Sequence record: PQ462667.1
Strand: one strand, 5' to 3'
Length of the DNA: 64,000 nucleotides
Source: Escherichia phage HMD-P3
How positions within the stretch are numbered: the stretch's first letter is position 1; each line of letters begins with the position of its first letter. The notes beneath the pieces were generated by a model. The model saw nothing but the letters and a program-made list of their open reading frames with translations, was not told where the DNA came from and searched no databases. Shown piece after piece: positions 8,908 through 38,174 of this stretch. The translations under genes were made by a program, and so were the position numbers.

Positions 8908-9527
8908 TAACTACCTCTCTTGTCCTCATTAATAGCAGCTCCCAACGCCTCCATAATAGCATCCTCTAAACTTCCATGTTTACTAGGATTATTAAAATGA
9001 ATAGTACAAACAGAACTCCTAGAAACTCCAGCATCCGCAGGTGCTACGCTTCGCATATCAGATTCAAAAGCTTCTTGAGTATGTTTTAACTGCACAGAAG
9101 GGCCGTAATCTTCCGCAAATTTATATGACTGCGTACTACTTACCACACCCCCACAAGGAACATTGTGCATATCTGACATTAATCTTTTATCGGAGTTATT
9201 CAGCATTGAGATTGTCCCTGACTGCCACGGATCTCTAATAGTCACTGGAGTACTAGGGCGGTTCACCTCAGTCTTCACAAGTTTGTACCCTGCATCGATT
9301 AATGCGTTAATTAGATTATCAGCCGGGATGCGAGCCTTGCCAAAAATCTCACGAGCGTTGTTGAGCCTGCCTTCAAAACCTTTACATGCTCTAATATTAG
9401 TGTGTGCAAAGGTTAGCTTCATAGATTTGAATTGTACAGTAGCAGTTAAATCTTTAAAGCTATAATCCCATGTATTCAGTTCATGGTCTGGTACTACTTG
9501 AATAGGTTGTTGTACATTAAAAGTCAT
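8907..9527 (-). CDS. hypothetical protein (206 aa)
   Basis: Long ORF, translationally coupled to neighbours. Confidence 0.6.
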   Translation of the reverse strand: MTFNVQQPIQVVPDHELNTWDYSFKDLTATVQFKSMKLTFAHTNIRACKGFEGRLNNAREIFGKARIPADNLINALIDAGYKLVKTEVNRPSTPVTIRDPWQSGTISMLNNSDKRLMSDMHNVPCGGVVSSTQSYKFAEDYGPSVQLKHTQEAFESDMRSVAPADAGVSRSSVCTIHFNNPSKHGSLEDAIMEALGAAINEDKRGS

Positions 9528-16309: not shown

Positions 16310-16733
16310 AGTTATTAATGGCCTCTAAGAAGTTTCTCATAGTTTTTACGGTTGCGGTGCTTAGATCAAGATTTACACCCAAACACTCGGTTAATGCCTC
16401 CTGATAAGGAGCCTTCAATCTGCCTTCTGGGACTTCTACCTTTTTATACTCTTTATTTTTGACCTTTTTAATCATAGTCTCTAGTACAAGAAGCGGTAAT
16501 TTAGCACCTTCAATATCAGTACCCAAAAGTTCAGTTAAAATTTTATTAAGATCAAGACGAGTTAACTTTTTGCCCTTAGACATAGATGCACCTACCTTTG
16601 TATCAATAGATTTTTCCGCTTTCTTTTCGAGCTTTTTGTACTCAGGAGAGTCATGATCACGGAGTGCAATGTTTAGCTCGTAATGTGGTATACGAAAATG
16701 TTCCGCCATTTGAGTATAGAAACGATCAGACAT
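16302..16733 (-). CDS. hypothetical protein
   Basis: 143-aa ORF. Confidence 0.5.
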   Translation of the reverse strand: MSDRFYTQMAEHFRIPHYELNIALRDHDSPEYKKLEKKAEKSIDTKVGASMSKGKKLTRLDLNKILTELLGTDIEGAKLPLLVLETMIKKVKNKEYKKVEVPEGRLKAPYQEALTECLGVNLDLSTATVKTMRNFLEAINNYE

Positions 16734-16808
16734 AATATATACCTCTCTTAACTAATTTATGTATATATTATATAATAACTAGGGCTAAAAGTCAACTACT
16801 TTTTTATC

Positions 16809-26797: not shown

Positions 26798-27165
26798 AAT
26801 TGAAAACTCGCAGGGTTAGCGAAACCTCCCTCAATTAGCATGTTCTAGAATACTAATCAAGTTATCTCCTATTGCACGCAGCTCAAGACGAGTACGAATT
26901 TTCAATTGTGGCGGCTCTCCGAAACTCTTCTACTCTAGCCTTAGCAGCTTACTCCCGAACGCATGTCGGGGAAGTCTTACTAAGAGCATCAAATAGCACC
27001 GTTACACTTTGAGCCATAGATATATCAAGAAGTAGAAGGACTTGAACCTTCACGAGATAGACCATTTATCTCAGCCGCTTTATGAGGTATGTTGTAGGGA
27101 GTGGATGTTCCCTATAAACCTTTTAGGCAGCCCCGTCTACCGATTCCGGCATACTTCAAGAACTT

Positions 27166-28037: not shown

Positions 28038-28120
28038 TGGTGCTTGCGGAGGGACTCGAACCCACACGAATTAACACGAACTCCTAAGGATCGCGCGTCT
28101 ACCAATTACGCCACGCAAGC
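28038..28120 (-). tRNA. tRNA-Leu (TAG)
   Basis: 5' gcttgcgtggcgtaattggtagac resembles E. coli tRNA-Leu; anticodon loop ctTAGga. Confidence 0.6.
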
Positions 28121-28606
28121 AATTATTTCTTCAAGTGGAGCATGAACCCACTCATTATTTCTAGATGAAAAAGAACTTAGGATTTCTTTTTCTTTGAGTT
28201 CATAATTATCTACTAGTTTATAATACTCTAATACATAGTCCCGAAAAGGGGAGTATGTTTGATAGGTATTTAATCTAGTCTCAGCATCTTTGGCTGCTCC
28301 TACTTTAAACCAGCCTGGAAAAGCTGGATTAGATATTATATAAATATATCCCAGCTTATTATTTATATTATTGATATAACAGTAAAGCTGTACTACTCTT
28401 AGGGATCTTTGATAGCTATGCTCTAGTCTCTTTTGGTATGTATTTGACTTCTTATCCTTACTAGGATTGGCCTTTCTAACTATATACCCATTATACCATA
28501 GAGCTATTTGCATGTAATTACTAGCGGTTACGTCTAGTTTGTTATTGTGGAGGAATATTTCTAACTCATTTAAGTTATCTTTTCTCCCATTTTTAGCTAT
28601 CTTCAT
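28106..28606 (-). CDS. T5orf172/GIY-YIG-like domain protein (homing-endonuclease-like)
   Basis: GYIYIISNPAFPGWFKVGAA...YQTYSPFRDY; paralog of 31392..31937. Confidence 0.65.
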   Translation of the reverse strand: MKIAKNGRKDNLNELEIFLHNNKLDVTASNYMQIALWYNGYIVRKANPSKDKKSNTYQKRLEHSYQRSLRVVQLYCYINNINNKLGYIYIISNPAFPGWFKVGAAKDAETRLNTYQTYSPFRDYVLEYYKLVDNYELKEKEILSSFSSRNNEWVHAPLEEIIACVA

Positions 28607-28624
28607 ACTACATACCCTTTAATT

Positions 28625-28700
28625 TGGTGGACAGTAGGAGAGTCGAACTCCTCACTCCTGAGTGCAAGTCAGGTATTTTCCCCAGATAAACTAACCGCCC
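28625..28700 (-). tRNA. tRNA-Ala (TGC)
   Basis: G3-U70 pair in the acceptor stem; anticodon arm cctga-ctTGCac-tcagg. Confidence 0.7.
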
Positions 28701-28985
28701 AAACTCTTTAGTTTACTAAGGCTATTAGCTCGGCGTAACTACAGCACCTTCGCTTCAAGCGGAAGGAACCGCGTCATCTCGCAAACCCGATACACTATTC
28801 AGTTGCCGCTGAATCTAGTGGACTAATCTAGAACTTCTCCCGAATCATAGGGATCGTGCTTTTTGGCAGCCAGTCCTAGGTCGAGCTAATACCTTAGTGA
28901 ACTATGATGAGGATTTCTCCTCATCAATTTATATAAATATTATAACAAGAAATTAAGCATCAAGCAACTGCATTTTTCTTGAAAT

Positions 28986-29064
28986 TGGTGGGTCGCCTGG
29001 GACTCGAACCCAGAACCTTCCGATTAAAAGTCGGATGCTACTAAACCTATTGAGCTAGCAACCC
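28986..29064 (-). tRNA. tRNA-Lys (TTT)
   Basis: Anticodon arm tccga-ctTTTaa-tcgga; T-arm ctggg-ttcgagt-cccag. Confidence 0.7.
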
Positions 29065-29073
29065 AAAATAACT

Positions 29074-29151
29074 TGGTAGCGGGTTCCAGTACTGCCCTGG
29101 ACTTACTTAGCTTATGAGACTAAGAAGAACTCTATGCCTCCCACCCGCAAT
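29074..29151 (-). tRNA. tRNA-like element, anticodon CAT, with non-canonical T-loop (GGCAGUA) and unpaired 1:72
   Basis: Anticodon arm ttagt-ctCATaa-gctaa, D-stem gagg/cttc, T-stem tccag/ctgga, CCA encoded. Confidence 0.35.
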
Positions 29152-29155
29152 TGTT

Positions 29156-29438: not shown

Positions 29439-29891
29439 TTAGCTTTCCTTCTCTTCACTTTATAAGATATATTATACAGAGAATTAAGCAGAATAGCAAA
29501 TGAATTTTTAATAAATTTACTTATTGTGTAGGCCACCTGGAGGCTACCAACCCCACGGCTGACAAAGAAGTTTGCGAGACCTCTCTTAAATGCCAGAATA
29601 GACCCGCCGATCTATCGGAACCTACATAATAAGTAAACTTTATAGTGTCATTCTAGACAGGACTCGAACCTGTTATCACTTGTGCGGACTTACGAGAACC
29701 ATTCTTTCACTCGAATCGAACGAGCTTCTGCCCTCGCCAAGCTGGTTTCCCCATCAACCACGCTAGAATGTTTGATTATTTTCAGTGCAAGAGTCCGAGT
29801 CTTGGACACGACCGCTTCGCAAGTACATAGGCAGCTTATCATGAGTCAGCACTTCCGAATTGCTAGCCCCGTGTTCTGCACTGAAATTTTG

Positions 29892-30537: not shown

Positions 30538-30639
30538 GCTTGTTTCCTCAGTTATTAATGAAAATGGTATCTGTGGCTGAATTCGATGTCAGCAATGATA
30601 GCTGGTTGGCTACCGGCTTACTTAACTCTACACAGAATT

Positions 30640-37340: not shown

Positions 37341-37844
37341 TTTAAGTATTTTTAAGAACTCTCGTAAAAACTCTTAAAAATACAGACGATACCGGGAGAG
37401 TCATAAGTCTCACTCATTAAGTATTTCAAGACAAAATACGGTAACGTCTACTATTTTCCAGTTTAAGTCAGGGTGACTTAGTGGTTATGTCCTGCGGTAT
37501 ATTGAGGACTCGGTTAGGCTCGGGGTCATGACTTCCCGCCTTTTGCTGCTACTCAACAGGAGTTATCGCGAATTACCTGTGCTATTGTGCACCATTAGTG
37601 ACATCTCTCATGCCAGCATTTCCCACTTTGTGGATAGCTTGAAAAACTACTCCGATATGGAGAAAGAACTTCACTATCCTAGAATACCTTCTAAAGTTCT
37701 TCTTTAGCCTGGACATAGTTAAATCGTAATAAAACTATTCAGCAGACTGGTTGGTTAGTCTGGAACCAACTACCGCGTGGTTTAGGCAGTGCGCAACTAA
37801 CCTCGGAAGCTTTTACTTTAAAAGCATCAGTTATCCAGTTCTTA

Positions 37845-37920
37845 CCGACCATAGGATTCGAACCTACATCTTCCACCAGTTACGGCTTGATAATACCAAT
37901 TATACTAGGACGGCAGTGTT
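37845..37920 (-). tRNA. tRNA-like element, no encoded CCA, anticodon not resolved
   Basis: T-arm gtagg-ttcgaat-cctat and 6/7-bp acceptor found; anticodon arm not convincingly foldable by hand. Confidence 0.3.
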
Positions 37921-38174
37921 ACTACATAAGTGATTTCCACACCCCACTATTTATAAATTAGAGAAGAGTTTAGGGGAGAGGTTTCAGACGCCTCATTTTA
38001 CACGTTCTAGCCACTAACCGGGATTGCCGCCCCCTGTGTACTAGTTTTACAACTAACCCACCGACTCTATTCAATGCGCTTCGGTTGGGATTATGCATTC
38101 AGCGTAATCGGCTCGCTGTTCCCTAATTTATGAATATATTATACAGAATTTAAAGGCATTTAGCAAATAAATTT

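What the first reader, a model, noticed from the sequence alone, without database searches (positions are those of the whole stretch)
28700..28985. Orphan early promoter driving a 220-nt structured leader into tRNA-Ala
A full promoter/leader module (about 28905-28985, minus strand) is followed by hairpins instead of an ORF (tgatgagga-tttc-tcctcatca at about 28890, attcag-ttgccg-ctgaat, ccttcgc...gcggaagg) and then tRNA-Ala. Either this is a tRNA precursor leader with processing sites or a small ncRNA. The same arrangement recurs at about 38120, heading an 800-nt noncoding stretch with a tRNA-like element before tRNA-Arg.
Basis: partly seen in the sequence, partly recalled or inferred. Interest (0 to 1): 0.5.

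Follow-up and report, generated by a model that had tools for sequence, protein, structure and literature searches.

The report
T5 RNA2H-family pseudoknotted phage RNA
The flagged stretch is this Salmonella phage's copy of phage T5's "RNA2H", a promoter-driven non-coding RNA of about 170-230 bases that is already annotated in T5 with function unknown; here it is shown to fold into a pseudoknotted structure conserved across T5-like phages of enterobacteria.

Summary
The window is Salmonella phage HMD-P5, a T5-like Tequintavirus. On the minus strand a T5-type early promoter (-35 TTGCTT, 17 nt, -10 TATAAT, ATATT discriminator) starts a transcript at about 28932. It has a 5' hairpin, a 194-nt structured core (28710-28903) and then tRNA-Ala. 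No ORF of 20 aa or more lies in it.

It is not an orphan. T5 RefSeq annotates the same slot as promoter P13b, then misc_RNA rna2H ("stable RNA with unknown functions", 172 nt, 98% identical), then tRNA-Ala. The second site near 38120 is T5 "RNAX".

New here: the RNA is a conserved module in nine lineages (Tequintavirus, Epseptimavirus including Yersinia phiR2-01, Enterobacter KKP_3711, Erwinia KEY, Sugarlandvirus, Pectobacterium DU_PP_V and My1). A 21-23-bp closing helix has an invariant bulged G. Helices P2 to P5 and a loop-to-junction pseudoknot all covary.

The downstream gene varies (tRNA-Ala, tRNA-Leu or an ORF), so this is an RNA gene, not a tRNA-Ala leader. It has no Rfam family, no detectable relation to T4 rnaC/rnaD and no match in E. 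coli genomes.

The function remains unknown. Release by RNase III or RNase P is inferred, not shown.

The parts
28936..28967 (-). T5-type early sigma-70 promoter, the equivalent of T5 P13b. -35 TTGCTT at 28962-28967, 17-nt spacer, -10 TATAAT at 28939-28944, discriminator ATATT at 28936-28940. Predicted +1 at about A28932.
   Evidence: Sequence. Aligns with the T5 regulatory feature 'promoter P13b'. ATATT is reported as the hallmark of T5 early promoters (PMC7472727). The start site is predicted, not mapped.
28905..28926 (-). 5' hairpin UGAUGAGGA-GAAA-UCCUCAUCA, one base upstream of P1.
   Evidence: Fold -13.8 kcal/mol, z = -4.2. A hairpin of different sequence sits at this position in KKP_3711, DU_PP_V and My1. 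It is absent in Sugarlandvirus. Its loop is inverted in two metagenome contigs, and an insert of about 95 nt replaces it in others.
28892..28903 (-). P1 lower helix, 5' strand: AGUUCACUAAGG.
   Evidence: Pairs with 28710-28721. It covaries across lineages; one position shows A-U, G-C and U-A.
28882..28891 (-). P1 upper helix, 5' strand: UAUUAGCUCG. Its first base, 28891, corresponds to the 5' end of T5-annotated RNA2H.
   Evidence: Pairs with 28723-28732. Eight P1 pairs change on both sides. T5 coordinates mapped.
28878..28881 (-). P2, 5' strand: ACCU.
   Evidence: Pairs with GGGU at 28785-28788. All four pairs covary and 98.9% of cells are paired.
28872..28876 (-). Pseudoknot, 5' strand: GGACU.
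   Evidence: Pairs with AGUCC in the P3 loop. 100% of cells are paired and four pairs covary (GC/AU, AU/GC, CG/UA/UG, UA/CG/UG).
28856..28871 (-). Conserved A-rich linker: GGCUGCCAAAAAGCAC.
   Evidence: CCAAAAA(A/G)CAC is kept in seven of the nine lineages. KEY has CCACAAAGCAC and My1 has GCAAAACGCAC. The small GGCU/AGC helix predicted inside it is not kept in Sugarlandvirus.
28838..28853 (-). Variable hairpin P2b: UCCC-UAUGAUUC-GGGA.
   Evidence: The stem base covaries (CCC/GGG against UGC/GCA). Insertions of 20-28 nt carrying an extra hairpin occur in Epseptimavirus, Sugarlandvirus and KKP_3711.
28814..28832 (-). Hairpin P3: UCUAG-AUUAGUCCA-CUAGA. Its loop, 28820-28824 AGUCC, is the 3' strand of the pseudoknot.
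   Evidence: Stem sequence differs by lineage: UCUGAU/AUCAGA in SE3, CGGAG/CUCCG in Sugarlandvirus, CUGG/CCAG in KEY and My1, UUCCG/CGGAA in DU_PP_V.
28798..28813 (-). Hairpin P4: UUCAG-CGGCAA-CUGAA. The loop motif is YGGYAA.
   Evidence: The stem is fully replaced in other lineages (ACGC/GCGU, AGGU/ACCU, AGAGA/UCUCU, AGGG/CCCU, GGGU/ACCC) while the loop motif is kept.
28785..28796 (-). Conserved junction AGUGUAUC followed by the P2 3' strand GGGU (28785-28788).
   Evidence: AGUGUA is invariant in all lineages.
28733..28782 (-). 3' hairpin P5, T5-type. Its base pairs are GCG/CGC.
   Evidence: Ten pairs change on both sides. Within the T5 type there is a C-G to U-G to U-A series. An Eps7-type version is swapped in among Epseptimavirus, Sugarlandvirus and KKP_3711.
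28710..28732 (-). P1 3' strand: CGAGCUAAUA, then an invariant bulged G (28722), then CCUUAGUAAACU. Position 28720 corresponds to the 3' end (...GCC) of T5-annotated RNA2H.
   Evidence: The bulged G plus CCU is invariant in all nine lineages.
28720..28891 (-). Equivalent of T5 misc_RNA rna2H: 172 nt, 98.3% identical.
   Evidence: blastn of the T5 feature against the window. The T5 note reads 'stable RNA with unknown functions'.
28625..28700 (-). tRNA-Ala(UGC), co-transcribed downstream. It is not part of the conserved module.
   Evidence: ARAGORN and Rfam. It is replaced by other genes in other phages.
37341..38174 (-). A promoter (TTGCTA ... TATAAT, about 38174-38138) is followed by about 790 nt of non-coding sequence, the T5 'RNAX' slot, ending at tRNA-Arg.
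   Evidence: T5 rnaX maps to 37341-37970.

Best explanation
This is a stand-alone gene for a structured non-coding RNA, the ortholog of phage T5 rna2H. It heads an early operon.

Shown here:
- A T5-type early promoter lies directly upstream.
- The stretch contains no ORF.
- The 194-nt core (28710-28903) is a conserved module in nine lineages of enterobacterial T5-like phages.
- The core folds as follows. P1 is 21-23 bp with an invariant bulged G. P2 is 3-4 bp and stacks on P1. Inside lie a variable hairpin (P2b), hairpin P3 and hairpin P4 with a YGGYAA loop. The P3 loop pairs with the junction just 3' of the P2 5' strand, forming a pseudoknot. A long 3' hairpin (P5) follows.
- Every helix is supported by compensatory changes.
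- The downstream gene is interchangeable.

Inferred:
- Host RNA polymerase transcribes the RNA early, together with tRNA-Ala.
- The RNA is then cut out of the transcript. The T5-annotated ends fall in the middle of the ~22-bp P1 helix with a 2-bp stagger. That is the geometry of an RNase III cut.
- The same 3' end can instead be read as a tRNA-like 'G + CC' acceptor end made by RNase P and 3' trimming.
- RNase P frees tRNA-Ala downstream.

Most likely role, a weak inference: a trans-acting accessory RNA that binds a protein or other ligand through its conserved pseudoknotted core. It would serve host take-over or counter-defence, like the neighbouring tRNAs. The function itself is not established.
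For: Identity and annotation:
- The window is 100% identical to Salmonella phage HMD-P5.
- T5 RefSeq has promoter P13b, then rna2H 'stable RNA with unknown functions', then tRNA-Ala at the same place.
- The window is 98.3% identical to the T5 feature over 172 nt.

Structure:
- Fold z = -5.0.
- On 36 Tequintavirus and Epseptimavirus sequences, 97.9% of cells pair, against 33-43% when partners are slid.
- On the multi-lineage alignment, P1 is 96.3% paired with 8 pairs changed on both sides.
- In the same count the pseudoknot is 100% paired with 4 of 4 core pairs covarying, against 19-50% for slid controls.
- On the covariance-model alignment of 22 sequences, P2 is 98.9% paired (4 of 4 covary) and the pseudoknot is 100% paired.
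- All helices were checked explicitly in nine lineages.
- Many G-U pairs would be C-A mismatches on the other strand, so the RNA is read from the minus strand.

Family breadth:
- Homologs not used to build the model were found by it: phiR2-01 at 108.7 bits, Erwinia KEY at 69.5 bits (E 7.5e-17) and My1 at 25.1 bits (E 2e-4), each with its own P1.

Independence from tRNA-Ala.

Not coding:
- No ORF of 20 aa or more.
- Length differences between homologs sit in hairpins.

Promoter class: the ATATT discriminator (PMC7472727).

Processing geometry:
- The T5 ends fall between alignment columns 12/13 and 224/225 of the 22-bp helix.
- P1 length is kept at 21-23 bp.
Against: - No expression or end-mapping data were available here. 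The T5 note says 'stable RNA', but I could not find the primary evidence, so the annotated ends may be predictions.
- Nothing points to a specific function or partner.
- The family was not detected in Vibrio phage phi 3 or Aeromonas phage Akh-2, in the regions searched.
- The T5 tRNA region tolerates deletions of 200-15,000 bp (PMC12483538). The RNA is therefore probably dispensable in the laboratory, although no deletion was shown to include rna2H.
- The covariation rests on about nine lineages, not hundreds.
- In Sugarlandvirus and KKP_3711 the P3 loop is only 5 nt, which is tight for a 4-bp pseudoknot.
Confidence: 0.8

Rival explanations
1. It is only a cis-acting leader or processing cassette. 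The structure would exist to protect, fold or correctly process the downstream tRNA(s), and the excised piece would have no function of its own.
For: - It is always the first element after a promoter and is usually followed by a tRNA.
- P1 looks like an rRNA-type processing stem.
- No trans target is known.
Against: - A processing stem needs only P1. The 150-nt interior, with a covarying pseudoknot, P2, P3, P4 and invariant loop and junction motifs, is conserved across four host genera or more.
- The downstream gene is not constant and is sometimes a protein ORF.
- The other tRNAs in the cluster need no such cassette.
Confidence: 0.12
2. It is a riboswitch-like 5' regulatory element. An aptamer closed by P1 would sense a ligand, or a tRNA, and control the downstream genes.
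For: - It has a promoter-proximal position.
- A multi-helix junction closed by P1, with a pseudoknot and conserved unpaired nucleotides, resembles aptamer architecture.
- In Eps7 and KKP_3711 an RBS follows P1 within a few bases.
Against: - There is no terminator or RBS-sequestering alternative. P1 is 21-23 bp and too stable to switch.
- The downstream genes are mostly tRNAs and have no common function.
- No Rfam riboswitch matches at E up to 10.
Confidence: 0.05
3. It encodes a very small protein, or it acts as a DNA element such as a homing-endonuclease target or recombination site, rather than as an RNA.
For: - Several GenBank records call 'hypothetical protein' CDSs over it.
- The tRNA region is a recombination hot spot (PMC12483538).
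Against: - No ORF of 20 aa or more lies in the window copy.
- The CDS calls lie on different strands and in different frames in different records.
- The substitution pattern is compensatory pairing with strand-specific G-U pairs, not codon-like.
- Insertions are whole hairpins.
Confidence: 0.02

Closest known systems
Phage T5 rna2H (misc_RNA T5s04, NC_005859 31808-31979), also annotated in DT57C and DT571/2
   Same: Same gene. It is 98.3% identical over 172 nt. It has the same promoter (P13b) and the same downstream tRNA-Ala.
   Different: HMD-P5 lacks the tRNA-Val that sits between tRNA-Lys and the promoter in T5. It also has a 166-aa ORF between tRNA-Ala and tRNA-Leu. The HMD-P5 record does not annotate the RNA.
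Phage T4 species 1 and species 2 RNAs (rnaC, rnaD)
   Same: Same kind of object: small stable RNAs of unknown function encoded inside a phage tRNA cluster and co-transcribed with tRNAs (T4 annotation).
   Different: No detectable homology. The core covariance model gives no hit at E up to 10 in the T4 tRNA region with filters off. They sit at the 3' end of the T4 cluster, not directly behind a promoter.
RNase III processing stems, such as the 16S/23S rRNA flanking stems and the T7 early R1.1-type sites (from established knowledge, not tested here)
   Same: A long-range duplex of about two helical turns is formed by the sequences flanking the mature RNA. It has an internal bulge. The T5-annotated ends lie mid-helix with a 2-bp 3' stagger.
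   Different: Cleavage has not been shown. The invariant bulged G + CC could instead be a tRNA-like discriminator + CC end produced by RNase P and exonucleases.
Large structured RNAs found next to phage tRNA genes (GOLLD, ROOL) and other Rfam families
   Same: Structured RNAs of unknown function in a phage tRNA neighbourhood.
   Different: No Rfam 15 family matches this region apart from the flanking tRNAs, at gathering thresholds or at E up to 10. This RNA is much smaller, about 170-195 nt.

Membership tests
T5 rna2H ('RNA2H stable RNA') | Sequence homology to the annotated T5 feature | tested here: met
   98.3% identity over all 172 nt, E 4e-83.
T5 rna2H ('RNA2H stable RNA') | Synteny: promoter P13b upstream and tRNA-Ala downstream, inside the tRNA cluster | tested here: met
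T5 rna2H ('RNA2H stable RNA') | Accumulates as a stable RNA in infected cells | not testable with these tools
   Only the GenBank note is available. No paper was found.
tRNA or tRNA-like RNA | Cloverleaf with T-arm and D-arm, detectable by tRNA models | tested here: not met
   ARAGORN and Rfam RF00005 find nothing in 28701-28985, even at E up to 10.
tRNA or tRNA-like RNA | Acceptor-type end: terminal helix followed by N-CCA | tested here: inconclusive
   The upper P1 helix (9-11 bp) is followed by an invariant G-CC. The next base is U, not A, and the CC pairs with the leader.
RNase III-processed RNA | Duplex of about 20 bp or more flanking the mature RNA | tested here: met
   P1 is 21-23 bp in all nine lineages and covaries.
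RNase III-processed RNA | Staggered cleavage leaving 2-nt 3' overhangs, dependent on rnc | not testable with these tools
   The T5-annotated ends fit a 2-bp stagger, but their experimental basis is unknown.
Riboswitch | Expression platform (terminator or RBS-sequestering alternative) coupled to the aptamer | tested here: not met
   No terminator follows P1 on the minus strand. The downstream gene varies, and P1 is very stable.
Any Rfam 15 family (6S, tmRNA, RNase P, YrlA, GOLLD, ROOL, ribozymes, riboswitches) | Score against the family covariance model | tested here: not met
   No hit at gathering score. The best non-tRNA hits have E 0.012-7.5, are far below gathering, and lie over the flanking tRNA-Lys, the promoter, the 5' hairpin or the ORF downstream of tRNA-Ala.
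T4 rnaC/rnaD | Homology of sequence and structure | tested here: not met
   Core model R1 with filters off gives no hit in T4 69500-74000.
Small protein gene | Conserved open reading frame | tested here: not met
   No ORF of 20 aa or more. The substitution pattern is compensatory pairing.

The most novel reading that the evidence does not exclude
RNA2H would be the founding member of an undescribed class of pseudoknotted phage RNAs with a specific biochemical job. It might be a molecular mimic or decoy that binds a host RNA-processing or tRNA-targeting defence protein of Enterobacterales. It might be the RNA subunit of a phage ribonucleoprotein. The other 'stable RNAs' of the T5 tRNA cluster (RNAI, III, IV, 1, 2, 3 and X) could then be further parts of an RNA-based host-takeover toolkit.
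Probability: 0.25. Interest if true: 0.75.

Novelty: already known. Interest (0 to 1): 0.45.

Why it matters
What the small stable RNAs in phage tRNA clusters do has been open since they were first seen in T4 and T5. T5-like phages are now workhorses for studying tRNA-targeting defence systems such as PARIS, retron Eco7 and Schlafen nucleases.

This analysis does not reveal the function. It turns an unexplained GenBank note into a testable object.
- It gives a defined family present in at least nine lineages of enterobacterial T5-like phages.
- It gives a base-pair-level model with a covariation-supported pseudoknot.
- It identifies invariant loop and junction nucleotides to mutate.
- It predicts a processing site.

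It also shows that many phage genome records call spurious 'hypothetical proteins' over this RNA. Some miss the adjacent tRNA. A covariance model or Rfam family would correct both errors.

Tried and rejected
Structural elements dropped:
- The single-sequence MFE and the Tequintavirus-only RNAalifold model contained a long-range helix CUAGGACU/AGUUCUAG. They also extended P4 with CACUA/UAGUG.
- Neither is kept in SE3/SB13, Sugarlandvirus, KKP_3711, KEY, DU_PP_V or My1. The P3 hairpin plus pseudoknot replaces them.
- The small helix GGCU/AGC(A)C and the 2-bp AC/GU at the base of P2b are not conserved in Sugarlandvirus and were dropped.

Searches that gave nothing new:
- Exact-pattern scans of IMG/VR and the metagenome collection with core motifs returned only close T5-like relatives.
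- A motif pattern in genome contigs gave 72 hits. That is about the chance expectation, by my own calculation. The hits come from unrelated taxa and none has a P1-like helix.
- No match in 5,426 E. coli genomes.
- The core model found nothing in Vibrio phage phi 3, Aeromonas phages (a 28-kb and a 3-kb region) or the T4 rnaC/rnaD region.
- A hammerhead-like reading of 'UGAUGAGGAG...' was considered. There is no Rfam ribozyme hit.

Technical limits:
A 120-position core model was used instead.

Literature:
- Searches for RNA2H and T5 stable RNAs found no description of structure or function.
- The supplements of the DRT9 paper, as held, did not list deletion coordinates.

RNAX:
- The whole RNAX region does not fold significantly better than shuffles (z = -1.1). 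It was not pursued.

Full report
**Identity of the window**

The stretch 28600-29070 is 100% identical to Salmonella phage HMD-P5 (PV016700.1; Demerecviridae, Tequintavirus). It has close matches in 439 phage records. On the minus strand the window carries the T5-type tRNA cluster. ARAGORN finds 22 tRNA genes between 24.7 and 37.3 kb, and Rfam finds 22 tRNA hits. The finding lies between tRNA-Lys (28986-29064) and tRNA-Ala (28625-28700).

**Check of the observation**

Reading the minus strand:
- -35 TTGCTT at 28962-28967, a 17-nt spacer, and -10 TATAAT at 28939-28944.
- ATATT at 28936-28940.
- A predicted start near A28932.
- A 9-bp hairpin with a GAAA loop at 28905-28926.
- About 200 nt of hairpin-rich sequence, then tRNA-Ala.

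The generic promoter scan did not list the promoter. TTGCTT matches TTGACA at only 3 of 6 positions, below the scanner's cut-off. TTGCTT/TATAAT with an ATATT discriminator is the T5 early-promoter form. Klimuk et al. report that all known T5 early promoters carry ATATT (PMC7472727).

The 240-nt transcript folds at -85.3 kcal/mol, against -59.8 +/- 5.1 for shuffles (z = -5.0). No ORF of 20 aa or more lies in 28701-28978 on either strand.

**It is already annotated in T5**

T5 RefSeq NC_005859 and the st0 record AY692264 annotate the syntenic slot as follows:
- regulatory 'promoter P13b';
- misc_RNA rna2H, 'RNA2H, stable RNA with unknown functions' (172 nt);
- tRNA-Ala, then tRNA-Leu.

The window is 98.3% identical to that feature (28720-28891). 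The whole promoter-to-RNA region aligns almost base for base. HMD-P5 merely lacks the tRNA-Val that T5 has upstream of the promoter.

All eight T5 'stable RNAs' map to the window:

| T5 RNA | Window coordinates |
|---|---|
| RNAIII | 26799-26904 |
| RNAI | 26909-27015 |
| RNA1 | 27016-27160 |
| RNA2H | 28720-28891 |
| RNAIV | 29525-29627 |
| RNA2 | 29646-29770 |
| RNA3 | 30565-30637 |
| RNAX | 37341-37970 |

- a promoter at about 38174-38138;
- about 790 nt with no ORF over 60 aa;
- a tRNA-like element at 37843-37914 (Rfam tRNA, 33.7 bits);
- a 17-bp hairpin just before tRNA-Arg.

The region as a whole does not fold better than shuffles (z = -1.1). I found no paper describing RNA2H.

**A conserved module, not a tRNA-Ala leader**

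The 285-nt stretch has full-length homologs in 424 phage records at 77-100% identity, from Tequintavirus and Epseptimavirus. I aligned 36 distinct copies from GenBank, IMG/VR and metagenome contigs. The conserved block runs from AGUUCACUAAGG to CCUUAGUAAACU, which is window 28710-28903.

What follows the block differs:
- one of several different tRNA-Ala alleles; or
- an RBS and ATG in Eps7, L013, L021 and L023.

What precedes it also differs:
- The 5' hairpin has an inverted loop (GAAA to UUUC) in two metagenome contigs.
- An insert of about 95 nt replaces it in five phages.

**More distant members**

A promoter-only BLAST hit led to Klebsiella phage IME260 (Sugarlandvirus). There the same slot (promoter, about 205 nt, tRNA-Ala, tRNA-Leu) holds a diverged copy. 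BLAST from that copy links back to the Epseptimavirus 3' hairpin (E 7e-20). It also reaches Enterobacter phage KKP_3711, where the RNA is followed by a small ORF.

A pattern built only from unpaired motifs (CCAAAAANCAC...GGYAA...AGTGTA) found Pectobacterium phage DU_PP_V, where the RNA is followed by tRNA-Leu.

A covariance model of the core domain (120 positions) then found members that were not used to build it:

| Phage | Bits | E-value |
|---|---|---|
| Yersinia phiR2-01 | 108.7 | 7.6e-28 |
| Erwinia phage KEY | 69.5 | 7.5e-17 |
| Pectobacterium phage My1 | 25.1 | 2e-4 |

Each has its own P1 helix. My1 also has a T5-type promoter and a 5' hairpin.

Negative results:
- No hit in Vibrio phage phi 3, Aeromonas phages or the T4 rnaC/rnaD region.
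- No blastn match in 5,426 E. coli genomes.
- 72 pattern hits in bacterial genomes, at about the chance level by my calculation and without a P1.

All hosts of family members are Enterobacterales.

**Structure**

Helices (window coordinates in 'parts'):
- P1: a 12-bp lower part and a 9-11-bp upper part, separated by an invariant bulged G on the 3' strand.
- P2: 3-4 bp stacked on P1, enclosing the central domain.
- A pseudoknot between the junction just 3' of the P2 5' strand and the loop of hairpin P3.
- P2b: a variable-length hairpin.
- P4: a hairpin with a YGGYAA loop.
- P5: a long 3' hairpin that comes in two exchangeable versions.

Unpaired motifs:
- CCAAAAA(A/G)CAC is kept in seven of the nine lineages and is modified in KEY and My1.
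- AGUGUA is invariant in all of them.

Counts:
- On the 36 close sequences, 97.9% of cells pair, against 33-43% for slid partners. Fourteen pairs change on both sides.
- On the multi-lineage alignment, P1 is 96.3% paired with 8 pairs changed on both sides. One position shows A-U, G-C and U-A.
- In that count the four core pseudoknot pairs are 100% paired and all covary (GC/AU; AU/GC; CG/UA/UG; UA/CG/UG). Slid controls give 19-50%.
- On the model-based alignment of 22 sequences, P2 is 98.9% paired (4 of 4 covary) and the pseudoknot is 100% paired.
- P3 and P4 are out of register in column alignments, so I checked them explicitly. Both are fully paired in all nine lineages, with unrelated stem sequences.
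- Within Sugarlandvirus alone the pseudoknot shows U-A (B01, Torridgeon), U-G (IME260) and C-G (Sugarland) at one position.

Frequent G-U pairs show that the RNA, not the DNA, is under selection, and that it is read from the minus strand.

Two helices from the first MFE and alifold models were rejected because they are not kept outside Tequintavirus and Epseptimavirus.

Caveats:
- The lineages number about nine.
- The shuffle control is not a probability.
- The 5-nt P3 loops of Sugarlandvirus and KKP_3711 are tight for a pseudoknot.

**How it probably works**

Shown: the promoter, the absence of an ORF, the conserved fold and the independence from the downstream gene.

Inferred: early transcription by host RNA polymerase as the first cistron of an RNA/tRNA operon, followed by excision.

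The T5-annotated ends fall between P1 columns 12/13 on the 5' strand and 224/225 on the 3' strand. That is the middle of a duplex of about 22 bp, with a 2-bp 3' stagger consisting of the bulged G plus CC. P1 length (21-23 bp) and the AGG.../...G-CCU junction are invariant. This geometry matches RNase III processing stems (established knowledge of rRNA and T7 early RNA processing).

The same end can be read as a tRNA-like discriminator + CC. Other T5 small RNAs end in GCCA or ACCA. However, the next base is an invariant U that pairs in lower P1. I cannot tell whether the T5 ends were measured or predicted.

The covarying pseudoknotted interior argues for a role beyond processing. The most likely role is a trans-acting RNA that binds a protein or ligand. 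The function is unknown. The T5 tRNA region tolerates deletions of 200-15,000 bp (PMC12483538), which fits an accessory role.

**Comparison with what is known**

It is the ortholog of T5 rna2H, so membership is met on sequence and synteny. It is the same kind of object as T4 species 1 and 2 RNAs, but not detectably related to them. It is not a tRNA, and it matches no Rfam 15 family at gathering score or at E up to 10. It lacks a riboswitch expression platform.

**Verdict**

The finding is real and correctly described. It rediscovers an annotated T5 feature (promoter P13b plus RNA2H), so novelty is 'already known'.
- the family's breadth;
- a covariation-supported pseudoknotted structure;
- a processing hypothesis;
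- the demonstration that it is an autonomous RNA gene.

Interest is moderate. The RNA class is unexplained and now directly testable, but no function emerged.

Noticed in passing
window 37341-38174 (minus strand): This is the T5 'RNAX' slot: a promoter followed by about 790 nt of non-coding sequence before tRNA-Arg. It holds a tRNA-like element at 37843-37914 and a 17-bp hairpin at about 37346-37383. The first ~160 nt (38132-37971) are absent from T5 RNAX. The whole-region fold z is only -1.1. Yersinia phiR2-01 has 1.6 kb of non-coding sequence in the same slot (L133 16583-18200).
   Followed up: partly
window 26799-27160, 29525-29770, 30565-30637 (minus strand): Six further T5-annotated 'stable RNAs of unknown function' have 84-99% identical copies in this phage: RNAIII, RNAI, RNA1, RNAIV, RNA2 and RNA3. 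Several have a closing helix and an NCCA-like 3' tail. None is in Rfam.
   Followed up: partly
window 29065-29155 (minus strand): The 91-nt spacer between tRNA-Pro and tRNA-Lys folds as a stem GCGGGU/ACCCGC enclosing two hairpins, followed by UACCA. It looks like a degenerate tRNA-like element. ARAGORN and Rfam do not call it, and its fold z is -1.2.
   Followed up: partly
L036 and L040 (metagenome contigs), equivalent to window 28905-28926: The loop of the 5' hairpin is inverted (GAAA to UUUC) while the stem is unchanged. This points to a DNA-level flip of the palindrome. It also shows that the loop sequence is not essential.
   Followed up: no
L015, L029, L044, L045 and L133 (phiR2-01), just upstream of P1: An insert of about 95 nt (AUAUCAGGUGUAUGACGUC...CUGAUAUCCAUCAAUU) replaces the 5' hairpin between promoter and RNA. 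It has terminal complementarity, but its fold z is weak (-1.05).
   Followed up: partly
L009 (SB13), L051 (Torridgeon), L134 (KEY 16547-16747), L132 (My1, about 9265-9345): Many GenBank records call 'hypothetical protein' CDSs over this RNA, on either strand. KEY lacks annotation of the tRNA-Ala that follows the RNA. My1 lacks annotation of the tRNA-Leu(UAG) that follows it.
   Followed up: partly
window 28106-28606 (minus strand): A 166-aa ORF sits between tRNA-Ala and tRNA-Leu(UAG). These two tRNAs are adjacent in T5. It may be a mobile or homing-type insertion, but it was not analysed. The HMD-P5 record leaves it unannotated.
   Followed up: no
L050 (Enterobacter phage KKP_3711), about 530-700: Directly after the RNA comes an RBS and a small Cys-rich ORF (MFLIKTTNWKCNCGCNIFHH...CKKCKSH...) where other phages have tRNA-Ala.
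   Followed up: no
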